A stretch of DNA of 6,334 bases from IMG/VR virus record IMGVR_UViG_2734482594_000010, one strand, 5' to 3'. Within the stretch, counting starts at the first letter, position 1, and each line of letters starts with the position of its first letter. The notes under the pieces were generated by a model. It was not told where the DNA came from, ran no database searches, and was given only the letters and a program-made list of their open reading frames with translations. Shown one piece after another: positions 1 through 4,636 of the stretch. Source of the stretch: a virus. Its lineage: Duplodnaviria; Heunggongvirae; Uroviricota; Caudoviricetes. The translations under genes were made by a program, and so were the position numbers.

Positions 1-64
1 TATCATCAGATGGCTGCTTAAAAAAAGAACAAATGGTAGTGTCCGCTATTGCCAGTACACCTCA
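1..64 (+). mobile_element. Right terminus of an IS3-family insertion sequence (partial; element body lies left of the window). Includes the last 6 codons and stop of the transposase (1..21, ...YHQMAA*)
   Basis: 1..64 is the exact reverse complement of 6228..6291 and the match ends abruptly at 65/6227. Read from the tip the end is TGAGGTGTACTGGCAATAGCGGACAC..., a 5'-TG terminus with a GCAATAG-GGACAC core resembling IS3-group terminal repeats. Specific IS name not assignable without a database search. Confidence 0.6.
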
Positions 65-263
65 TCCATCACCGAAAAAAATTGGCTTTTACACCATTGG
101 CGATAAAAGCATTTACCTGTATGACCTACGCCGCATGGATGAAATCATGGAGGCTCTTGATAATCGTTCGTCGATGGATTGGTGTGTTGCTGTTCATGAT
201 ATGAATGCAGGGTTTGATGAAAAGATTTTGTTCCCCTCATCAGTTGAAAGCACTGCGGGTTAA
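33..263 (+). CDS. Hypothetical protein, probably the 3' remnant of a phage gene truncated by the IS insertion. The ATG at 33 lies inside IS-derived sequence; native sequence starts at 65; an internal in-frame ATG is at 135
   Basis: Open frame 33..263 (76 aa) crosses the IS junction at 64/65. Stop TAA 261..263 overlaps the SD (AAGGAG 262..267) of the next gene. Confidence 0.3.
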   Translation: MVVSAIASTPHPSPKKIGFYTIGDKSIYLYDLRRMDEIMEALDNRSSMDWCVAVHDMNAGFDEKILFPSSVESTAG

Positions 264-273
264 GGAGTAACAC

Positions 274-441
274 ATGACCACTATTACCAAAGAACGTATT
301 GAATTGTTCATTAAAAACCCGCTTGAAAACGGGCTTACCCGTGGTGAACAAATGGAACTGGCACGGATTGCGCTGGCATCGCTGGAAGCAGAGCCGGTTG
401 TGTTCTGGTTTGAAAAATATCAAGAAGGGGCTACGGCATGA
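274..441 (+). CDS. Hypothetical small phage protein (55 aa), N-terminal paralog of the next ORF
   Basis: ATG 274 preceded by AAGGAG (262..267, 6-nt spacing). Ends in ATGA (438..441) overlapping the next start. Shares MTT-T-E start and motif [10 protein letters not shown] with [10 protein letters not shown] of the 438..782 product. Below the 60-aa cutoff of the supplied ORF track. Confidence 0.6.
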
Positions 442-782
442 CGACTTTTACCAGAGAGCAGTTAATAGCTCACGCAGAGGAGACTATTGAAGCACAGAGA
501 CTGTGCATACCGGGCACAATCGACCATGACATCATCCGCACATATAAGATGGATATTGCTGTTCTGGAAATCGCACTGGTATCGCTGGCAGCAGAGCCAG
601 CCGGTAAATTGCATGAATACAAACCAGTGGGATATCAGCGTCTGGTCGATGAGTTAACCATGCTGGTAAAGCAGTTAACCTGGCAACTGAGGAAAGCGAA
701 GCCAGACTGCAAATTACCGGATAAGGCGATGAGTTATCTGGAGCGGAACGGACTGATAAGCGTGGAGGATATTTTACGATGA
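438..782 (+). CDS. Hypothetical phage protein (114 aa), paralogous over about 50 N-terminal residues to the 274..441 product
   Basis: ORF track entry. Start overlaps upstream stop (ATGA); stop overlaps the next ATG (ATGA 779..782). Confidence 0.7.
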
Positions 783-862
783 CCTGGCCTGAAGCATTAA
801 CAACGGTAGGAATTGCGATGGCGGTGGCGCTGGTGGTGTATTCGATTTGCCGCTGGGGATAA
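779..862 (+). CDS. Putative 27-aa hydrophobic peptide ([27 protein letters not shown]), single predicted transmembrane helix
   Basis: ATG 779 overlaps the upstream stop. SD GGAGGA at 764..769 with 9-nt spacing. Hydrophobic core [18 protein letters not shown]. Very short, so coding status is uncertain. Confidence 0.35.
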
Positions 863-869
863 AAACGGT

Positions 870-897
870 TTGCGGGAAAAGGAGAGTTAAGTAGAAT
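870..897 (+). promoter_or_regulatory. Candidate sigma70 promoter for the mok/hok transcript (-35 TTGCGG 870..875, 16-bp spacer, -10 TAGAAT 892..897)
   Basis: Hexamer matches read from the sequence. Position about 120 nt upstream of the mok start fits the long leader of hok mRNAs. Not verified. Confidence 0.3.
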
Positions 898-1016
898 TGC
901 AGCGGGTGCTTGAGGCTATCTGTCTCAGGCATGAACACCAAAAGGCAGATAGAGAAAAGCCCCAGTTAACATTACGCGTCCGGCAAGACGCTTAACATTA
1001 ATCTGAGGCTCAATCT

Positions 1017-1229
1017 ATGAACGGCAAATCTAGGTTAGCCTCTTACGTGCCGAAAGGCAAGGAGAAGCAGGCTATGAAGCAGCAAAAGGCGATGTTAATC
1101 GCCCTGATCGTCATCTGTTTAACCGTCATAGTGACGGCACTGGTAACGAGGAAAGACCTCTGCGAGGTACGAATTCGAACCGGCCAGACGGAGGTCGCTG
1201 TCTTCACAGCTTACGAACCTGAGGAGTAA
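1017..1229 (+). CDS. mok: mok-like frame: in-frame upstream extension of hok (70 aa), expected to couple translation of hok
   Basis: ATG 1017 in frame with hok. No alternative-frame ORF overlaps hok (frame +1 has stops at 1018, 1036, 1075; frame +2 has no start). Lengths 70/51 aa match the known Mok/Hok pairing. Confidence 0.5.
   Translation: MNGKSRLASYVPKGKEKQAMKQQKAMLIALIVICLTVIVTALVTRKDLCEVRIRTGQTEVAVFTAYEPEE
1074..1229 (+). CDS. hok: Hok/Gef-family type I toxin, 51 aa (MKQQKAMLIALIVICLTVIVTALVTRKDLCEVRIRTGQTEVAVFTAYEPEE), HokD/RelF-like
   Basis: Translation matches the Hok/Gef family signature (N-terminal TM helix, conserved TRKDLCEV-IRTGQTEVAVF-AYE) as recalled. ATG 1074 preceded by AAGGAGAAG. 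Confidence 0.85.
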   Translation: MKQQKAMLIALIVICLTVIVTALVTRKDLCEVRIRTGQTEVAVFTAYEPEE

Positions 1230-1298
1230 GAGACCAGGCGGGGGAGAAATCCCTCGCCACCTCTGATGGGTCAGGCATCCTCAATGCACCCACACTTA

Positions 1299-1324
1299 AC
1301 CCGCTTCGGCGGGTTTTTGTTTTT
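1299..1324 (+). terminator. Rho-independent terminator of the hok transcript (stem ACCCGC/GCGGGT, UUCG tetraloop, then TTTTTGTTTTT)
   Basis: Perfect 6-bp stem 1299..1304 / 1309..1314 with loop TTCG, followed by a T-run, 70 nt after the hok stop. Confidence 0.7.
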
Positions 1325-1337
1325 ATTTTCAACGCGT

Positions 1338-1367
1338 TTGAAGTTTTAGATGGTGCCGGAATAGAAT
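1338..1367 (+). promoter_or_regulatory. Candidate sigma70 promoter downstream of the hok terminator (-35 TTGAAG 1338..1343, 18-bp spacer, -10 TAGAAT 1362..1367)
   Basis: Hexamer matches only; would drive the 1450..4064 gene string. Confidence 0.25.
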
Positions 1368-1449
1368 CAAAAATACTTAAGTAGCGCGCAGGGAGAAGAG
1401 GGATGGACCCCGAACAGGGGAGTGCTATTTATCTGGAAGGATTCTGTTG

Positions 1450-1731
1450 ATGAAAATCGAAGAATTACGTGAAATTTTTAGTGAAGATGGCCTCTATACT
1501 GTGCGCGTTGAGAATGGCGCTATTGTCAGCCACTGCCTTCCAGACTACACAATTCTGATAATTCAGCCGTCTTTGCCAGCAGGCACGGGCGGCGCTCTCA
1601 CGCATTTAAATCTGATTGGTACCAGCATCCCCCATGCACTGAAGAACAGGCCGAATGGCTCATTCAGTGTTACCGCAGGCGCGGATGCGAGGTTAAAAAA
1701 GCCCTTAGCCTCGACTACCGTCACTGGATAA
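1450..1731 (+). CDS. Hypothetical small protein (93 aa from ATG 1450; track lists TTG 1447), Qin Rem-like by position. Reading frame appears disrupted; see finding on a frameshift at 1629..1633
   Basis: ORF track entry. SD-like GGAAGG 1435..1440. N-terminal 60 aa look protein-like; the C-terminal 30 aa in this frame do not, whereas the -1 frame from about 1632 to the TAA at 1804..1806 does and abuts the next gene's start. Confidence 0.45.
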   Translation: MKIEELREIFSEDGLYTVRVENGAIVSHCLPDYTILIIQPSLPAGTGGALTHLNLIGTSIPHALKNRPNGSFSVTAGADARLKKPLASTTVTG

Positions 1732-1806
1732 TCTCCGTCAGGCTCCCTTACTCCGAACGGCCAACGCGTCCGTCCCGCACATTCCAGCAACGGATCTGGA
1801 GGTAAT

Positions 1807-2865
1807 GTGCGGGTATTACTTCGACCTGTTCTGGTACCGGAACTCGGTCTGGTTATCGTTAAGCCAGGCCGTGAATCAATGTCAGCATTCCATAACGGCA
1901 GAATACTGGTGGAGCCGGAACCAAAAAGCATGCGTAATCTGCCGTCCGGGGTCGTTCCTGCCGCTCGCCAGCCGCTGGTGGAAGACAAAACATTGCTGCC
2001 GTTTTTCAGTAACGCACGGGTGATTCGTGCTGCTGGTGGTGCTGGTGCATTGTCTGACTGGCTGTTGCGCCATATTAAATCCTGCCAGTGGCCACACGGC
2101 GATTATCATCACAGCGAAACCGTCATTCACCGTTATGGTACCGGCGCAATGGTGTTGTGCTGGCACTGCGACAACCAGCTGCGTGACCAGACATCCGAAT
2201 CACTCGAGCAACTTGCTCATCAAAACCTGTCAGCATGGATGATTGACGTCATCGGTCACGCAATAAGCGGTACGCAGGAGCGTGAATTATCTCTGGCTGA
2301 ATTATCCTGGTGGGCGGTCCGCAATCAGGTGGCGGACGCGCTACCGGAAGCGGTATTACGTCGTTCGCTGGGGTTGCGTGCGGAAAAAATTCGCTCTGTG
2401 TACAGTGAAAGCGACATCATACCGGGAGAGCAGACAGCCACCAGCATACTGAAGCAGCGCACAAAAAATATTGCGTTACTGCCTCACGTCCACCAGCAAC
2501 AGAACCCACCACAGGAAAAGACGGTGGTCAGCATTGCCGTTGATCCGGAGTCACCGGCTCAGTATCTCCAGCGCCAGAAATCACAACGGGAAGAGATGCC
2601 TGTATACACGCGCTGGGTAAAAACGCAGAAATGCATGACGTGTGGCAATCAGGCAGATGATCCGCATCACATCATTGGTCATGGACTGGGAGGGATGGGA
2701 ACAAAGGCTGATGATTTGTTTGTTATTCCGTTATGCCGTAAATGCCGTAACGAACTACATGCCGGAGTAAAAGATTTTGAAGAGAAACACGGCAGTCAGC
2801 TGTTGTTGCTGATTCGTTTTTTAATGCACGCGAGAAATTCGGGTGTTCTGAAGTGGAAAGCATAA
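1807..2865 (+). CDS. DUF968-family prophage protein (YdfU-like, 352 aa) with two HNH-like Zn-finger motifs
   Basis: GTG start 1807 with SD GGAGG 1797..1801. N-half motif CQWPHGDYHH...CWHCDNQL; C-terminal motif CMTCGNQADDPHHIIGHG...CRKCRNELH. Family and position between rem and Q as in E. coli Qin (recalled). Confidence 0.8.
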   Translation: MRVLLRPVLVPELGLVIVKPGRESMSAFHNGRILVEPEPKSMRNLPSGVVPAARQPLVEDKTLLPFFSNARVIRAAGGAGALSDWLLRHIKSCQWPHGDYHHSETVIHRYGTGAMVLCWHCDNQLRDQTSESLEQLAHQNLSAWMIDVIGHAISGTQERELSLAELSWWAVRNQVADALPEAVLRRSLGLRAEKIRSVYSESDIIPGEQTATSILKQRTKNIALLPHVHQQQNPPQEKTVVSIAVDPESPAQYLQRQKSQREEMPVYTRWVKTQKCMTCGNQADDPHHIIGHGLGGMGTKADDLFVIPLCRKCRNELHAGVKDFEEKHGSQLLLLIRFLMHARNSGVLKWKA

Positions 2866-3246
2866 ATGACCGAGCGCATAGAATTTGTTTTACCTTACCC
2901 GCCGACGGTGAACACTTACTGGCGTCGTCGTGGCAGCACATATTTTGTATCAAAAGCCGGGGAGCGTTATCGCCGGGCAGTGGCGCTTATTGTTCGCCAG
3001 CAGCGGCTGAAATTAAGCCTGTCCGGAAGGTTGGCAATAAAAATTATTGCAGAACCACCGGATAAGCGCCGCCGTGACCTGGACAATATTCTGAAAGCGC
3101 CGCTGGATGCGCTGACGCATGCGGGGTTGCTAATGGACGATGAGCAGTTTGATGAAATCAATATCGTTCGTGCTCAGCCAGTATCTGGTGGACGTCTGGG
3201 GGTGAAGATTTATCCCATAATGCTTGAAGGGCAGGTCAAAAAATGA
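2866..3246 (+). CDS. rusA: RusA-family Holliday-junction resolvase (126 aa)
   Basis: ATG directly follows the upstream TAA. Translation contains the RusA acidic catalytic core ...DKRRRDLDNILKAPLDALTHAGLLMDDEQF..., close to E. coli RusA ...[30 protein letters not shown]... as recalled. Confidence 0.9.
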   Translation: MTERIEFVLPYPPTVNTYWRRRGSTYFVSKAGERYRRAVALIVRQQRLKLSLSGRLAIKIIAEPPDKRRRDLDNILKAPLDALTHAGLLMDDEQFDEINIVRAQPVSGGRLGVKIYPIMLEGQVKK

Positions 3247-4064
3247 AACTGGAAGATTTACCGAAATACTACTCCCCAAAATCCCCCGGCCTGACTGATG
3301 CATCGGCCTCAACGTCGAAAGATGCGCTGAGTATCACTGATGTGATGGCCGCGCAGGGCATGACACAGAATCGGGCTGAGATGGGGGTTTCTGCGTTCCT
3401 TGGGAAAATGGGCATTAGTATGAATGACAGAGAGCGGGCAACAGAATTGCTGACAGAATATGCACTCAGTCGGTGTGATCGCGTGGCGGCGTTAAGAAAA
3501 CTCCCGGCAGAAATAAAACCGGCAGTGATGCGTATTATGGCTTCGTATGCGTTTGAAGATTATGCCCGTAGCGCGGCGAGCAAAAAACAGTGCCCCTGCT
3601 GTCACGGAAAAAAATTTATTGAAAGCGAGGTTTTTACAAACAAGATCCAGTATCCGGATGGTAAGCCGCCGGTATGGGCAAAGTGTACGAAAGGTGTGTA
3701 TCCGTCTTACTGGGAAGAATGGAAAAAAGTCAGGGAGGTGGTAAAAGTTGCCTGTCCGGAGTGTGGCGGAAAGGGTGAGGTTTCCACCGCCTGTAAGGAT
3801 TGCCGTGGGCGTGGTGTCGCCATTCATCGTGAAGAGTCGGTAAAACGTGGTATGCCTGTTATCAGAGACTGCCAGCGTTGTGGTGGTCGTGGCTATGAAA
3901 GACTACCATCAACGGAGGCATTTAATGCTATATGCGAGGTGACAAACCAGATAACACGCGCGTCATGGGAAAAAACAGTTAAGAAATTTTATGATGCGCT
4001 GGTGACCCGGTTTGATATTGAAGAAGCATGGGCTGAGCGGCAGTTAAAAAAGGTAACTAGGTAA
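3243..4064 (+). CDS. Putative late-gene antiterminator Q (Qin QuuQ-like, 273 aa) with four CxxCxGxG-type Zn-finger repeats
   Basis: ATGA overlap with rusA. Lies immediately upstream of a lambda-PR'-like promoter with pause element and tR'. N-terminus MKLEDLPKYYSPKSP... resembles Qin-type Q as recalled. Repeats CPCCHGKK, CPECGGKG, CKDCRGRG, CQRCGGRG. Confidence 0.7.
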   Translation: MKLEDLPKYYSPKSPGLTDASASTSKDALSITDVMAAQGMTQNRAEMGVSAFLGKMGISMNDRERATELLTEYALSRCDRVAALRKLPAEIKPAVMRIMASYAFEDYARSAASKKQCPCCHGKKFIESEVFTNKIQYPDGKPPVWAKCTKGVYPSYWEEWKKVREVVKVACPECGGKGEVSTACKDCRGRGVAIHREESVKRGMPVIRDCQRCGGRGYERLPSTEAFNAICEVTNQITRASWEKTVKKFYDALVTRFDIEEAWAERQLKKVTR

Positions 4065-4069
4065 CAAGG

Positions 4070-4109
4070 TTGATTTTTCCGGAATCTGTGGTAAATTCGT
4101 CATAACGAT
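4070..4109 (+). promoter_or_regulatory. Late promoter PR' with Q-utilisation region: -35 TTGATT (4070..4075), 16-bp spacer, extended -10 TGgTAAATT (4089..4097), promoter-proximal sigma70 pause element AACGAT (4104..4109)
   Basis: The -10 TAAATT and the AACGAT placed 6 nt downstream are the same elements and spacing as in phage lambda PR' (established). Starts 6 nt after the Q stop. Confidence 0.7.
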
Positions 4110-4144
4110 GGGCGTTTTATGCCTGACGTTAGAAGAGTTTCTAC

Positions 4145-4168
4145 AACCCGCCGCCGAGCGGGTTTTTT
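4145..4168 (+). terminator. tR'-like rho-independent terminator (stem CCCGC/GCGGG, loop CGCCGA, then T6)
   Basis: Hairpin 4147..4162 followed by TTTTTT 4163..4168, about 60 nt downstream of the predicted PR' start. Confidence 0.65.
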
Positions 4169-4288
4169 ATGACTGAAATCGCGTCAGTACAGTAAACGCG
4201 CTGGTGGCGGTGAATACCTGTCTTTCAGCTTGCTGGCTTTTTCGACAAGAGTTATTGGTGTGTCACGTTAACCGGAAAAGGAAAAGAC

Positions 4289-4486
4289 ATGCTAAAACAG
4301 CAGGATATGACAGAAACCGCCAGAGTGGTGTTTAATGAATTAAGCGTTACCGAACCGGCGACAGTCGGGGAGATAGCGCAGAATACTTACCTTTCACGCG
4401 AACGCTGCCAGTTAATACTGACCCAGCTGGTTATGGCGGGTCTGGCAGACTATCAGTTCGGTTGTTACAGACGCCTTCCGCAGTGA
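4289..4486 (+). CDS. Small putative DNA-binding protein (65 aa) with helix-turn-helix / winged-helix-like segment (PATVGEIAQNTYLSRERCQLILTQLVMAGLADYQ)
   Basis: ORF track entry. SD-like AAGGAAAAG upstream of ATG 4289. Stop codon lies inside the following terminator hairpin. Confidence 0.5.
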   Translation: MLKQQDMTETARVVFNELSVTEPATVGEIAQNTYLSRERCQLILTQLVMAGLADYQFGCYRRLPQ

Positions 4487-4496
4487 AGGCTTTTTT
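4473..4496 (+). terminator. Rho-independent terminator (stem GCCTTC/GAAGGC, 6-nt loop, T6) overlapping the stop of the 4289..4486 ORF
   Basis: Perfect 6-bp stem 4473..4478 / 4485..4490 followed by TTTTTT 4491..4496. Confidence 0.6.
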
Positions 4497-4513
4497 ATTT
4501 GTGGTAAATGGGC

Positions 4514-4544
4514 GGCTGGTGGGTGTTAGGGGCACCCACCAGCC
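4514..4544. promoter_or_regulatory. Perfect 12-bp inverted repeat GGCTGGTGGGTG-(7 nt)-CACCCACCAGCC in the leader of the methyltransferase gene; candidate operator or RNA stem-loop
   Basis: Arms 4514..4525 and 4533..4544 are exact reverse complements. No T-run follows, so not a classical terminator. Confidence 0.4.
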
Positions 4545-4636
4545 ATCTGCTCATGCGTTGGGTTCACAAGCAAACCTCAGGCCCACTGCTTTGCGCAAAA
4601 GCAGAATGAGCCTATCAGAGACAGGCTTAATGATCC

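What the first reader, a model, noticed from the sequence alone, without database searches (positions are those of the whole stretch)
870..1324. Prophage mok/hok toxin locus: in-frame mok, UUCG-capped terminator, no convincing sok promoter
Hok is HokD-like. The only upstream reading frame that can couple to hok is in frame (1017), making Mok an N-terminally extended Hok. A 7-bp inverted repeat (916..922 / 946..952) lies in the leader, and the 3' end has a GC stem with a UUCG tetraloop that could serve as the fold-back inhibitory element as well as the terminator. On the minus strand across the mok start, the best candidate sok promoter (-35 TTGCCT, -10 TAACCT) is poor, so the antisense control may be decayed, as in several chromosomal hok loci. 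If so, hok is either silent or controlled differently here.
Basis: partly seen in the sequence, partly recalled or inferred. Interest (0 to 1): 0.4.

Follow-up and report, generated by a model that had tools for sequence, protein, structure and literature searches.

The report
Intact hokD/hokW-type hok/sok toxin–antitoxin cassette
This is an ordinary, fully intact copy of the well-known hok/sok RNA-controlled toxin module that sits in many E. coli prophages, and its antisense (Sok) promoter is not decayed but identical to one already shown to work in the Shiga-toxin phage Sp5.

Summary
The reading that antisense control is decayed does not hold.

- **Family membership.** Window 904–1079 (+) matches the Rfam hok/sok leader model at 112 bits (E 9e-26). 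Hok (1074–1229) is a Pfam HOK_GEF protein, 51/51 identical to K-12 HokD.
- **Closest characterised relative.** The locus is about 93% identical to mokW/hokW/sokW of phages 933W and Sp5.
- **sok promoter.** The element judged poor (−35 TTGCCT, 17 nt, −10 TAACCT) is base-for-base identical to the Sp5 sokW promoter. There SokW RNA was seen on northern blots, and mutating that −10 removed the protection. An R1-type plasmid promoter scores the same 7/12.
- **In-frame mok.** An in-frame mok 57 nt upstream is the commonest layout (29 of 43 loci surveyed) and is already annotated for mokC, mokA and mokW. Classical R1 uses 58 nt, +1 frame.
- **fbi element.** It is not the UUCG terminator. It is 1279–1291, which pairs with the 5' end (904–915) at probability ≥0.9, with compensatory changes across genera.

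Verdict: already known, low interest.

The parts
870..897 (+). hok promoter: -35-like TTGCGG (870-875), 16-nt spacer, -10 TAGAAT (892-897). Predicted start at G904.
   Evidence: Read from the sequence. A -10 sits at the same offset before GGGYGC in relatives: TAGAAT in Kluyvera L034/L036 and TATAAT in K-12 hokC. The Rfam model starts at 904. Positions 861-903 differ from 933W at one base only, and hokW mRNA is expressed in Sp5 lysogens (PMC8621323). The start site is inferred, not mapped.
904..1320 (+). Full-length hok (mok-hok) mRNA
   Evidence: MFE -169.2 kcal/mol, z = -6.97 against shuffles. On 34 relatives its pairs are 85% kept, against 40-47% for slid controls, and 32 pairs show changes on both sides.
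904..915 (+). tac (translational activator element), the 5' end of the mRNA
   Evidence: Pairs with 1279-1291 in the full-length fold at probability >=0.90 per pair. When the 3' end is cut at 1276 it pairs instead with 957-963, which is the Rfam consensus structure.
916..952 (+). Conserved 5' leader hairpin.
   Evidence: Helix 2 is 92.6% paired, with 3 pairs changed on both sides.
957..963 (+). ucb / anti-SD box. It pairs with the mok SD region (1005-1010) in full-length mRNA and with tac in truncated mRNA.
   Evidence: pair table and truncated folds. Helix 4 shows covariation: A-U in 22 sequences and G-C in 11 at columns 77/121.
955..1025 (-). sok gene: antisense RNA of about 68-71 nt with a 14-nt single-stranded 5' tail, a long hairpin and a U-tail. 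It covers the mok SD and start codon.
   Evidence: Coordinates transferred from the annotated 71-nt sokW of 933W. Fold -29.9 kcal/mol, z = -4.9. The start at G1025 lies 7 nt after the -10. Expression was not measured for this window.
1032..1060 (-). sok promoter: -35 TTGCCT (1060->1055), 17-nt spacer, -10 TAACCT (1037->1032)
   Evidence: Identical to 933W/Sp5 across 1031-1076. The Sp5 -10 mutant lost protection (PMC8621323). Across 34 relatives -35 is TTGCCT, TTGACC or TTGCGC, and -10 is TAACCT, TAATCT, TATCCT, TAGCCT or (C)ACTCT, with a 17-nt spacer throughout.
1005..1008 (+). mok Shine-Dalgarno GAGG
   Evidence: Invariant in 34 of 34 aligned relatives, 8 nt before the ATG at 1017.
1017..1229 (+). 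mok reading frame, 70 aa, in frame with hok and sharing its stop
   Evidence: The same 57-nt in-frame layout occurs in mokW, mokC, mokA and 29 of 43 surveyed loci.
1060..1064 (+). hok Shine-Dalgarno AGGAG. It overlaps the sok -35 on the other strand.
   Evidence: AGGAGA in 31 of 34 relatives.
1074..1229 (+). hok toxin gene, 51 aa
   Evidence: Pfam PF01848 at 1.2e-23. 51/51 identical to K-12 HokD and 47/51 to HokW.
1237..1258 (+). 3' UTR hairpin GGCGGGGGA-GAAA-UCCCUCGCC, the predicted protective 3' end of the processed (truncated) hok mRNA
   Evidence: Helix 16 is 94.6% paired. The role is assigned by analogy with the last stem-loop of R1 Tr-hok (PMC9841398).
1279..1291 (+). fbi (fold-back inhibitory element), with a bulged U at 1285
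   Evidence: Pairs with 904-915. It always lies 45-56 nt after the hok stop. Compensatory changes: U907/A1288 becomes C/G in 11 sequences and G915/C1279 becomes A/U in 5.
1298..1329 (+). Intrinsic terminator: 7-bp stem, UUCG loop, T-run
   Evidence: It folds independently of fbi. It is shared with K-12 hokD but replaced by unrelated sequence in 933W, Kluyvera and Photorhabdus.

Best explanation
Window ~861-1330 is a complete, canonical hok/sok type I toxin-antitoxin cassette of the hokD/hokW lineage, carried in the nin-Q region of a lambdoid prophage.

**Mechanism.** The anatomy is shown here; the steps are inferred from the R1 and Sp5 systems.
1. A modest promoter (-10 TAGAAT) makes a stable mRNA of about 415 nt starting at G904.
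2. In the full-length RNA the 5' end (tac, 904-915) is clamped to fbi (1279-1291). This lets ucb (957-963) sequester the mok SD, so nothing is translated.
3. Slow 3' trimming back to the hairpin at 1237-1258 removes fbi and the terminator.
4. tac then pairs with ucb, the mok SD is freed, and ribosomes translating mok (1017) open the hok SD and start, so Hok is made.
5. Sok is an unstable antisense RNA of about 70 nt (1025->955). It is made from the TTGCCT-17-TAACCT promoter embedded in the mok/hok leader. It pairs with the mok SD/start region of the trimmed mRNA, and the duplex is destroyed. Sp5 data implicate RNase III and Hfq.
6. Hok therefore appears only when Sok synthesis stops or Sok is depleted.

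**Likely role.** By analogy with hokW-sokW, it helps lysis and phage release after prophage induction. Alternatively or additionally, it stabilises the prophage.

**On the mok frame.** In-frame mok simply means that Mok here is Hok with 19 extra N-terminal residues. What matters is translation of mok up to the hok start, not the Mok product.
For: - Family and identity: Rfam RF01794 at 112.4 bits on the + strand, 904-1079. Pfam HOK_GEF. Hok is 51/51 identical to K-12 HokD.
- Closest relative: about 93% nucleotide identity to the annotated mokW/hokW/sokW of 933W and VT2-Sakai.
- sok promoter: identical to Sp5. Sp5 experiments show HokW toxicity, SokW on northern blots, loss of protection in the -10 mutant, RNase III/Hfq dependence, and loss of SokW with appearance of HokW after mitomycin C (PMC8621323).
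- Sok RNA: folds as a 5' tail plus hairpin plus U-tail, z = -4.9.
- End-pairing and refolding: reproduced in silico.
- Family-wide structure: 85% of cells paired against 40-47% for slid controls, with 32 pairs changed on both sides. Compensatory changes in tac/fbi.
- Translation signals: mok SD GAGG invariant and mok ATG present in 32 of 34 relatives.
- R1 model: described in PMC9841398.
- Distribution: found in 4933 of 5426 complete E. coli genomes and in 78 phage records.
- Prophage context: DUF968, RusA, antiterminator Q, DNA methylase and a tRNA.
Against: - Nothing was measured for this exact sequence.
- The stretch between the sok -10 and about +8 (1018-1031) differs from Sp5, so promoter output could differ.
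- By hexamer match the sok promoter is only 7/12 and fails a consensus scan.
- The conserved promoter positions overlap the hok SD and structured RNA, so their conservation is not independent proof of promoter function.
- The window's ends lie in IS3-family elements, so the prophage may be a remnant and a lysis-helper role might no longer apply.
- NCBIfam Hok HMMs score below their cut-offs (48.5 against 73).
Confidence: 0.88

Rival explanations
1. One reading: the sok promoter has decayed, so this is a chromosomal hok relic in which hok is silent or controlled by something other than Sok.
For: The promoter matches only 7 of 12 consensus positions and is not called by the scan. Truly eroded copies exist: E. 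coli L011 lacks tac, K-12 hokD lacks the whole leader, and K-12 hokA, hokC and hokE are hit by IS elements.
Against: The -35, spacer and -10 are identical to the experimentally functional sokW promoter. An R1-type plasmid Sok promoter scores the same 7/12, and the scan calls no Sok promoter in it or in 933W. The key bases (TTG; A at position 2 and T at position 6 of the -10) and the 17-nt spacer are kept out to Photorhabdus. Every other regulatory element is intact, and there is no IS inside the cassette.
Confidence: 0.04
2. The cassette is intact, but its main role is prophage (or genomic-island) stabilisation by post-segregational killing, or exclusion of superinfecting phage, rather than helping lysis on induction.
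For: [quoted passage not shown] The window's prophage segment is bracketed by IS3-family ends and may be defective, which would make a release-helper role moot. Such cassettes persist in cryptic prophages such as Qin.
Against: The only direct experiment on a prophage member (hokW-sokW) found an effect on lysis timing and phage yield, and no growth effect of deleting it under normal conditions (PMC8621323). Nothing here tests stabilisation or exclusion.
Confidence: 0.3
3. The UUCG terminator hairpin itself acts as the fold-back inhibitory element.
For: It lies at the 3' end, where fbi is expected, and is GC-rich.
Against: It has no complementarity to the 5' end. The MFE and ensemble pair 904-915 with 1279-1291 and leave the terminator as a separate hairpin. 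fbi is conserved and covaries with tac, while the terminators differ completely between lineages or are absent at that spot in 933W.
Confidence: 0.02

Closest known systems
hokW-mokW-sokW of Stx phages 933W / Sp5 (VT2-Sakai)
   Same: About 93% nucleotide identity over 432 nt. Identical sok promoter, hok SD and most of hok. The same 57-nt in-frame mok and 71-nt antisense layout. Hok is 47/51 identical.
   Different: Four C-terminal Hok residues differ (TAYEPEE against VDYESEK). mok codons 2-6, which are also the Sok 5' end and promoter discriminator, differ. Homology stops right after fbi, so 933W has no UUCG terminator there. In 933W the cassette sits near the right end of the genome, not in the nin-Q region.
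hokD (relF) of the K-12 Qin cryptic prophage
   Same: Hok protein 51/51 identical. The same 3' UTR, fbi and UUCG terminator.
   Different: The K-12 copy has lost everything upstream of the hok SD (tac, ucb, mok, sok) and is fused behind relBE. The window is the intact form of this locus.
hok/sok (parB) of plasmid R1
   Same: The same set of elements: promoter, tac, ucb, mok SD, mok, sok promoter at the same offset, hok SD, hok, 3' hairpin, fbi and terminator. The R1 model is in PMC9841398. An R1-type plasmid locus was compared.
   Different: In R1 proper, mok starts 58 nt before hok and is in the +1 frame (mok start nt 116-118, hok start nt 174-176). Here it is 57 nt and in frame. In the R1-type plasmid locus compared here (L004) the promoter hexamers are TTGCGC/TATCCT and tac/fbi are GGCGC/GCGCC. 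Takada et al. report 44% identity between R1 Hok and HokW.
hokC/mokC/sokC (gef) of E. coli K-12
   Same: In-frame mok 57 nt upstream, annotated with the same stop as hokC. The sokC start lies 9 nt into mokC, the same offset as predicted here.
   Different: sok promoter hexamers are TTGACC / (C)ACTCT. The leader is shorter. The K-12 copy has IS186 just downstream.

Membership tests
hok/sok type I toxin-antitoxin family | Small Hok/Gef-family membrane toxin ORF of about 50 aa | tested here: met
   Pfam PF01848 at 82.9 bits against a cut-off of 22. 51/51 identical to K-12 HokD. NCBIfam Hok HMMs hit but fall below their cut-offs (48.5 against 73).
hok/sok type I toxin-antitoxin family | Conserved structured hok mRNA leader (Rfam RF01794) | tested here: met
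   112.4 bits against a gathering score of 59, E 9e-26, full model 1-157, + strand 904-1079. The model is in the sense of the hok leader, not of Sok.
hok/sok type I toxin-antitoxin family | mok reading frame with its own SD, starting 57-58 nt before hok and reading through the hok start | tested here: met
   ATG at 1017, GAGG at 1005-1008, 57 nt, in frame.
hok/sok type I toxin-antitoxin family | cis-antisense Sok gene with its promoter inside the mok/hok leader, giving an RNA with a 5' tail, a hairpin and a U-tail that covers the mok translation start | tested here: met
   Met at the sequence level. The promoter is identical to the validated sokW promoter.
hok/sok type I toxin-antitoxin family | Sok RNA actually expressed and protective | not testable with these tools
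   Only indirect evidence: shown for the 93%-identical Sp5 locus with the same promoter (PMC8621323).
hok/sok type I toxin-antitoxin family | Long-range tac-fbi pairing of the mRNA ends | tested here: met
   904-915 pairs with 1279-1291 at probability >=0.90. Helix 1 is 90.7% paired with 3 pairs changed on both sides. Compensatory changes are listed.
hok/sok type I toxin-antitoxin family | Refolding after 3' trimming: tac-ucb pairing that frees the mok SD | tested here: met
   In silico only. With the 3' end at 1276, 904-911 pairs with 957-963; in the full-length RNA, 958-963 pairs with 1005-1010. 3' processing itself was not tested.
hok/sok type I toxin-antitoxin family | Hok kills or arrests cells when expressed | not testable with these tools
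   HokW (47/51 identical) is toxic (PMC8621323). The identical K-12 HokD/RelF protein is reported toxic in the literature (Gerdes et al. 1986, cited as reference 23 in that paper; not read here).
hokW-sokW subgroup (Stx-phage cassette) | Near-identity to the 933W/Sp5 cassette, including its 3' end and genomic position | tested here: not met
   93% identity up to fbi only. The 3' terminator, the Hok C-terminus and the position in the prophage differ. It is better filed as the intact hokD allele, as PGAP names it in other genomes.

The most novel reading that the evidence does not exclude
Because mok is in frame here (and in most relatives), translation from 1017 would make a 70-aa Hok carrying a 19-residue basic N-terminal extension. 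This longer isoform could itself insert in the membrane and act as a second toxin or a timing variant, rather than being a mere by-product of coupling. The repeated switching between 57-nt (in-frame) and 58-nt (+1) spacing among lineages would then reflect selection on whether that isoform is made. A second, weaker lead: the hok 3' UTR (1238-1319) has an IsrK-like two-hairpin layout (25.7 bits, below threshold) and might yield a stable 3'-derived sRNA.
Probability: 0.1. Interest if true: 0.3.

Novelty: already known. Interest (0 to 1): 0.07.

Why it matters
It matters little beyond correct annotation.

- The window carries an intact, probably active hok/sok module of a type present in about 90% of complete E. 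coli genomes and already studied in phage Sp5.
- Weak hexamer matches are normal for Sok promoters and do not indicate decay.
- The Rfam 'sok' model reports the hok-leader strand, so the Sok gene is on the opposite strand.
- The locus named hokD by PGAP is, in most genomes, the complete form of the module. K-12 Qin retains only a 5'-truncated stump of it.

Tried and rejected
1. A consensus promoter scan as a test of the sok promoter. It fails here, but it also calls no Sok promoter in an R1-type plasmid locus or in 933W, so it is uninformative.
2. My recollection that mok is always out of frame. This is true for R1 proper (58 nt). It is false for the R1-type IncFII plasmid examined, for hokC, hokA and hokW, and for 29 of 43 loci.
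3. A first regex for the 5' end missed the Photorhabdus and Kluyvera loci. I fixed this by inspection and a looser pattern.
4. In alignment A2 the relatives without the fbi bulge are shifted by one column. This inflates the 'not paired' cells for columns 418-423. The duplex-based table shows they pair.
5. The isrK and rsmX hits over the 3' UTR are below threshold and driven by generic hairpins plus the terminator. I did not pursue them.
6. NCBIfam gave only sub-cut-off Hok hits.
7. I did not use the large protein searches or structure prediction, because the identity of the protein was never in doubt.

Full report
**Observation**

- The 51-codon ORF at 1074..1229 is a Hok/Gef-family protein (Pfam PF01848, 82.9 bits against a cut-off of 22). 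It is 51/51 identical to K-12 HokD.
- An ATG at 1017 opens a 70-codon frame that is in frame with hok and shares its stop. No start codon in another frame reads into hok.
- The 7-bp inverted repeat 916-922 / 946-952 is exact.
- The 3' hairpin AACCCGC-TTCG-GCGGGTT (1298-1315) with a T-run is called as an intrinsic terminator.
- On the minus strand the hexamers TTGCCT (1060->1055) and TAACCT (1037->1032) are 17 nt apart. They match 7 of 12 consensus positions and are not called by a consensus promoter scan.

**What it is**

Rfam's hok/sok model RF01794 matches 904-1079 on the + strand at 112.4 bits (gathering score 59, E 9e-26), over the full model. The model is in the sense of the hok mRNA leader, so the Sok gene lies on the opposite strand.

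The 455-nt locus occurs in 4933 of 5426 complete E. coli genomes, with a median of two places per genome. PGAP names the protein HokD there. It also occurs in 78 phage records.

It is about 93% identical to the annotated mokW/hokW/sokW of phage 933W and VT2-Sakai (Sp5).

The surrounding genes place it in the early-right region of a lambdoid prophage. They are DUF968/HNH, RusA, antiterminator Q, a DNA methylase and a tRNA.

**The sok promoter**

From 1031 to 1076 the window is base-for-base identical to 933W. That stretch holds the -35, the 17-nt spacer and the -10.

Takada et al. (PMC8621323) worked on the Sp5 locus and showed the following:
- HokW is toxic.
- sokW expressed from its own promoter protects.
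- Changing TAGGTTA to CCGGCTC on the + strand (primers YO-421/422), which destroys TAACCT, removes protection.
- SokW RNA is seen on northern blots in lysogens and disappears after mitomycin C, while HokW appears.

The sokW annotation in 933W is 71 nt. It transfers to window 1025->955, with the start at G1025, 7 nt after the -10. That RNA folds as a 14-nt single-stranded 5' tail, one long hairpin and a U-tail (-29.9 kcal/mol, z = -4.9). The tail and the 5' arm of the hairpin cover the mok start codon and SD.

The R1-type plasmid Sok promoter is TTGCGC-17-TATCCT, also 7/12. The consensus scan calls no Sok promoter in that locus or in 933W.

Across 34 aligned relatives from Escherichia, Shigella, Kluyvera, Citrobacter, Pantoea and Photorhabdus, the promoter is conserved:
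- -35 is TTGCCT, TTGACC or TTGCGC.
- -10 is TAACCT, TAATCT, TATCCT, TAGCCT or (C)ACTCT.
- The spacer is always 17 nt.

This conservation is partly confounded. The -35 overlaps the hok SD, and the spacer is structured RNA. Taken together, the promoter is the normal family promoter, not a decayed one.

**The mok frame**

In R1 proper the mok start is at nt 116-118 and the hok start at nt 174-176. That is 58 nt, so +1 frame (PMC9841398).

The 57-nt in-frame arrangement is already annotated for mokW/hokW, mokC/hokC and mokA/hokA. It is also present in an R1-type IncFII plasmid.

In a survey of 43 loci:
- 29 have the in-frame 57-nt layout.
- 8 have the 58-nt +1 layout.
- 6 have neither. These include the relBE-fused K-12-type hokD.

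For R1, translation of mok up to the hok start is what matters, not the Mok product (PMC9841398). That explains why either frame is tolerated. The mok SD GAGG is invariant in 34 of 34 relatives, and the ATG is present in 32 of 34.

**fbi and the terminator**

The full-length RNA (904-1322) has an MFE of -169.2 kcal/mol, z = -6.97. In it the first 12 nt (904-915) pair with 1279-1291, with U1285 bulged. Each pair has probability >=0.90. The terminator forms a separate hairpin.

In the same fold, 958-963 pairs with 1005-1010, which sequesters the mok SD. When the 3' end is cut at 1276, the 5' end pairs with 957-963 instead. This is the Rfam consensus (open) structure. Cut at 1270, the 5' end forms a local hairpin (906-916 / 922-932), like the metastable structure described for R1.

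Among relatives, the segment complementary to the 5' end always lies 45-56 nt after the hok stop. The compensatory changes are:
- U907/A1288 becomes C/G in Photorhabdus, Pantoea and the R1-type plasmid.
- G915/C1279 becomes A/U in Kluyvera and Photorhabdus.
- G914/C1280 becomes A/U in Citrobacter.

I mapped the window's MFE onto the 34-sequence alignment A2:
- 85.0% of cells pair, against 40-47% for slid controls.
- 32 pairs change on both sides; 0 of 500 shuffles reach that number.
- The end-pairing helix is 90.7% paired.
- Its 'not paired' cells come mostly from a one-column register shift in the relatives that lack the bulge.

The terminators, in contrast, are unrelated between lineages, and there is none at that spot in 933W. 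So fbi is 1279-1291, and the UUCG hairpin is only the terminator. The hairpin at 1237-1258 is conserved (94.6% paired). It corresponds to the protective 3' stem-loop of truncated R1 hok mRNA.

**Relation to K-12 hokD**

K-12 hokD shares the hok ORF, the 3' UTR, fbi and the UUCG terminator with the window. Homology stops at the hok SD, upstream of which lie relE and relB. The window is therefore the intact form of the locus, and K-12 Qin retains a 5'-truncated relic of it. Truly eroded copies do exist elsewhere, for example E. coli locus L011, which lacks tac. This window is not one of them.

**Mechanism and role**

The anatomy is shown by the calls above. The steps are inferred from R1 and Sp5.
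1. The full-length mRNA is stable and closed by the tac-fbi clamp.
2. Slow 3' trimming removes fbi and the terminator.
3. tac pairs with ucb, which opens the mok SD.
4. mok translation drives hok translation.
5. Sok, made constitutively but unstable, pairs with the trimmed mRNA, which is then degraded.
6. Hok is therefore made only when Sok is lost.

The most likely role is to help lysis and phage release on induction, as for hokW-sokW. Prophage stabilisation or phage exclusion are alternatives.

The ends of the window lie in inverted copies of an IS3-family element. The prophage may therefore be a remnant.

**Verdict**

The identity of the locus is right. The claims of decayed antisense control, an unusual mok frame and a terminator acting as fbi are not. 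The cassette is an already known kind of element and is of low interest.

Noticed in passing
window 1-64 and 6228-6291 (also 6225-6334): The ends of the window carry a perfect 64-nt inverted repeat. Positions 6225-6334 are 100% identical to the end of an IS3-family element present in up to 43 copies per E. coli genome. Complete genomes match the window contiguously only over 65-6041. The prophage piece is therefore bracketed by inverted copies of the same IS, or the contig ends in collapsed repeats.
   Followed up: partly
window 779-862 (+): A small hydrophobic [30 protein letters not shown] (27 aa). Its ATG overlaps the stop of ORF 438-782, and it ends just before the left edge of the hok cassette (about 861). 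It is conserved but unannotated in 933W ([27 protein letters not shown]). In E. coli CAU16175 a different annotated 34-aa hydrophobic protein ends at the same junction.
   Followed up: partly
window 1238-1319 (+): A sub-threshold match to the Salmonella prophage sRNA IsrK (RF01394, 25.7 bits against a gathering score of 50). It covers the hok 3' UTR hairpin, fbi and the terminator. This may be only a generic two-hairpin resemblance.
   Followed up: partly
window 5855-5895 and 5867-6049 (+): A run of N (masked sequence) lies inside a match to the prophage sRNA STnc100 (RF02076, 69.8 bits against a gathering score of 47). A second weak STnc100-like match lies at 6088-6276.
   Followed up: no
window 5736-5811 (+): A tRNA with anticodon CAT, called Met by ARAGORN. 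The tRNA at the equivalent position in a related prophage is annotated tRNA-Ile by PGAP, so it may be a lysidine-modified tRNA-Ile2 typical of lambdoid late regions.
   Followed up: no
window 1338-1367 (+) and ORF 1447-1731: A promoter-like site, TTGAAG-18-TAGAAT, lies directly after the hok terminator. It precedes a 94-aa ORF with no Pfam or NCBIfam match.
   Followed up: no
loci L012 (E. coli) and L033 (Kluyvera sp.): The relE-hok fusion arrangement of K-12 Qin, in which hok lacks its leader and sits behind relBE, also occurs in a Kluyvera genome with a diverged Hok and a different terminator. The fusion is therefore not confined to E. coli K-12.
   Followed up: no
Rfam RF01794 match, window 904-1079 (+): The Rfam family named 'sok antitoxin' is modelled in the sense of the hok mRNA leader: it starts at the mRNA 5' end and runs to the hok start codon. 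Its hits therefore mark the strand opposite the Sok gene.
   Followed up: yes
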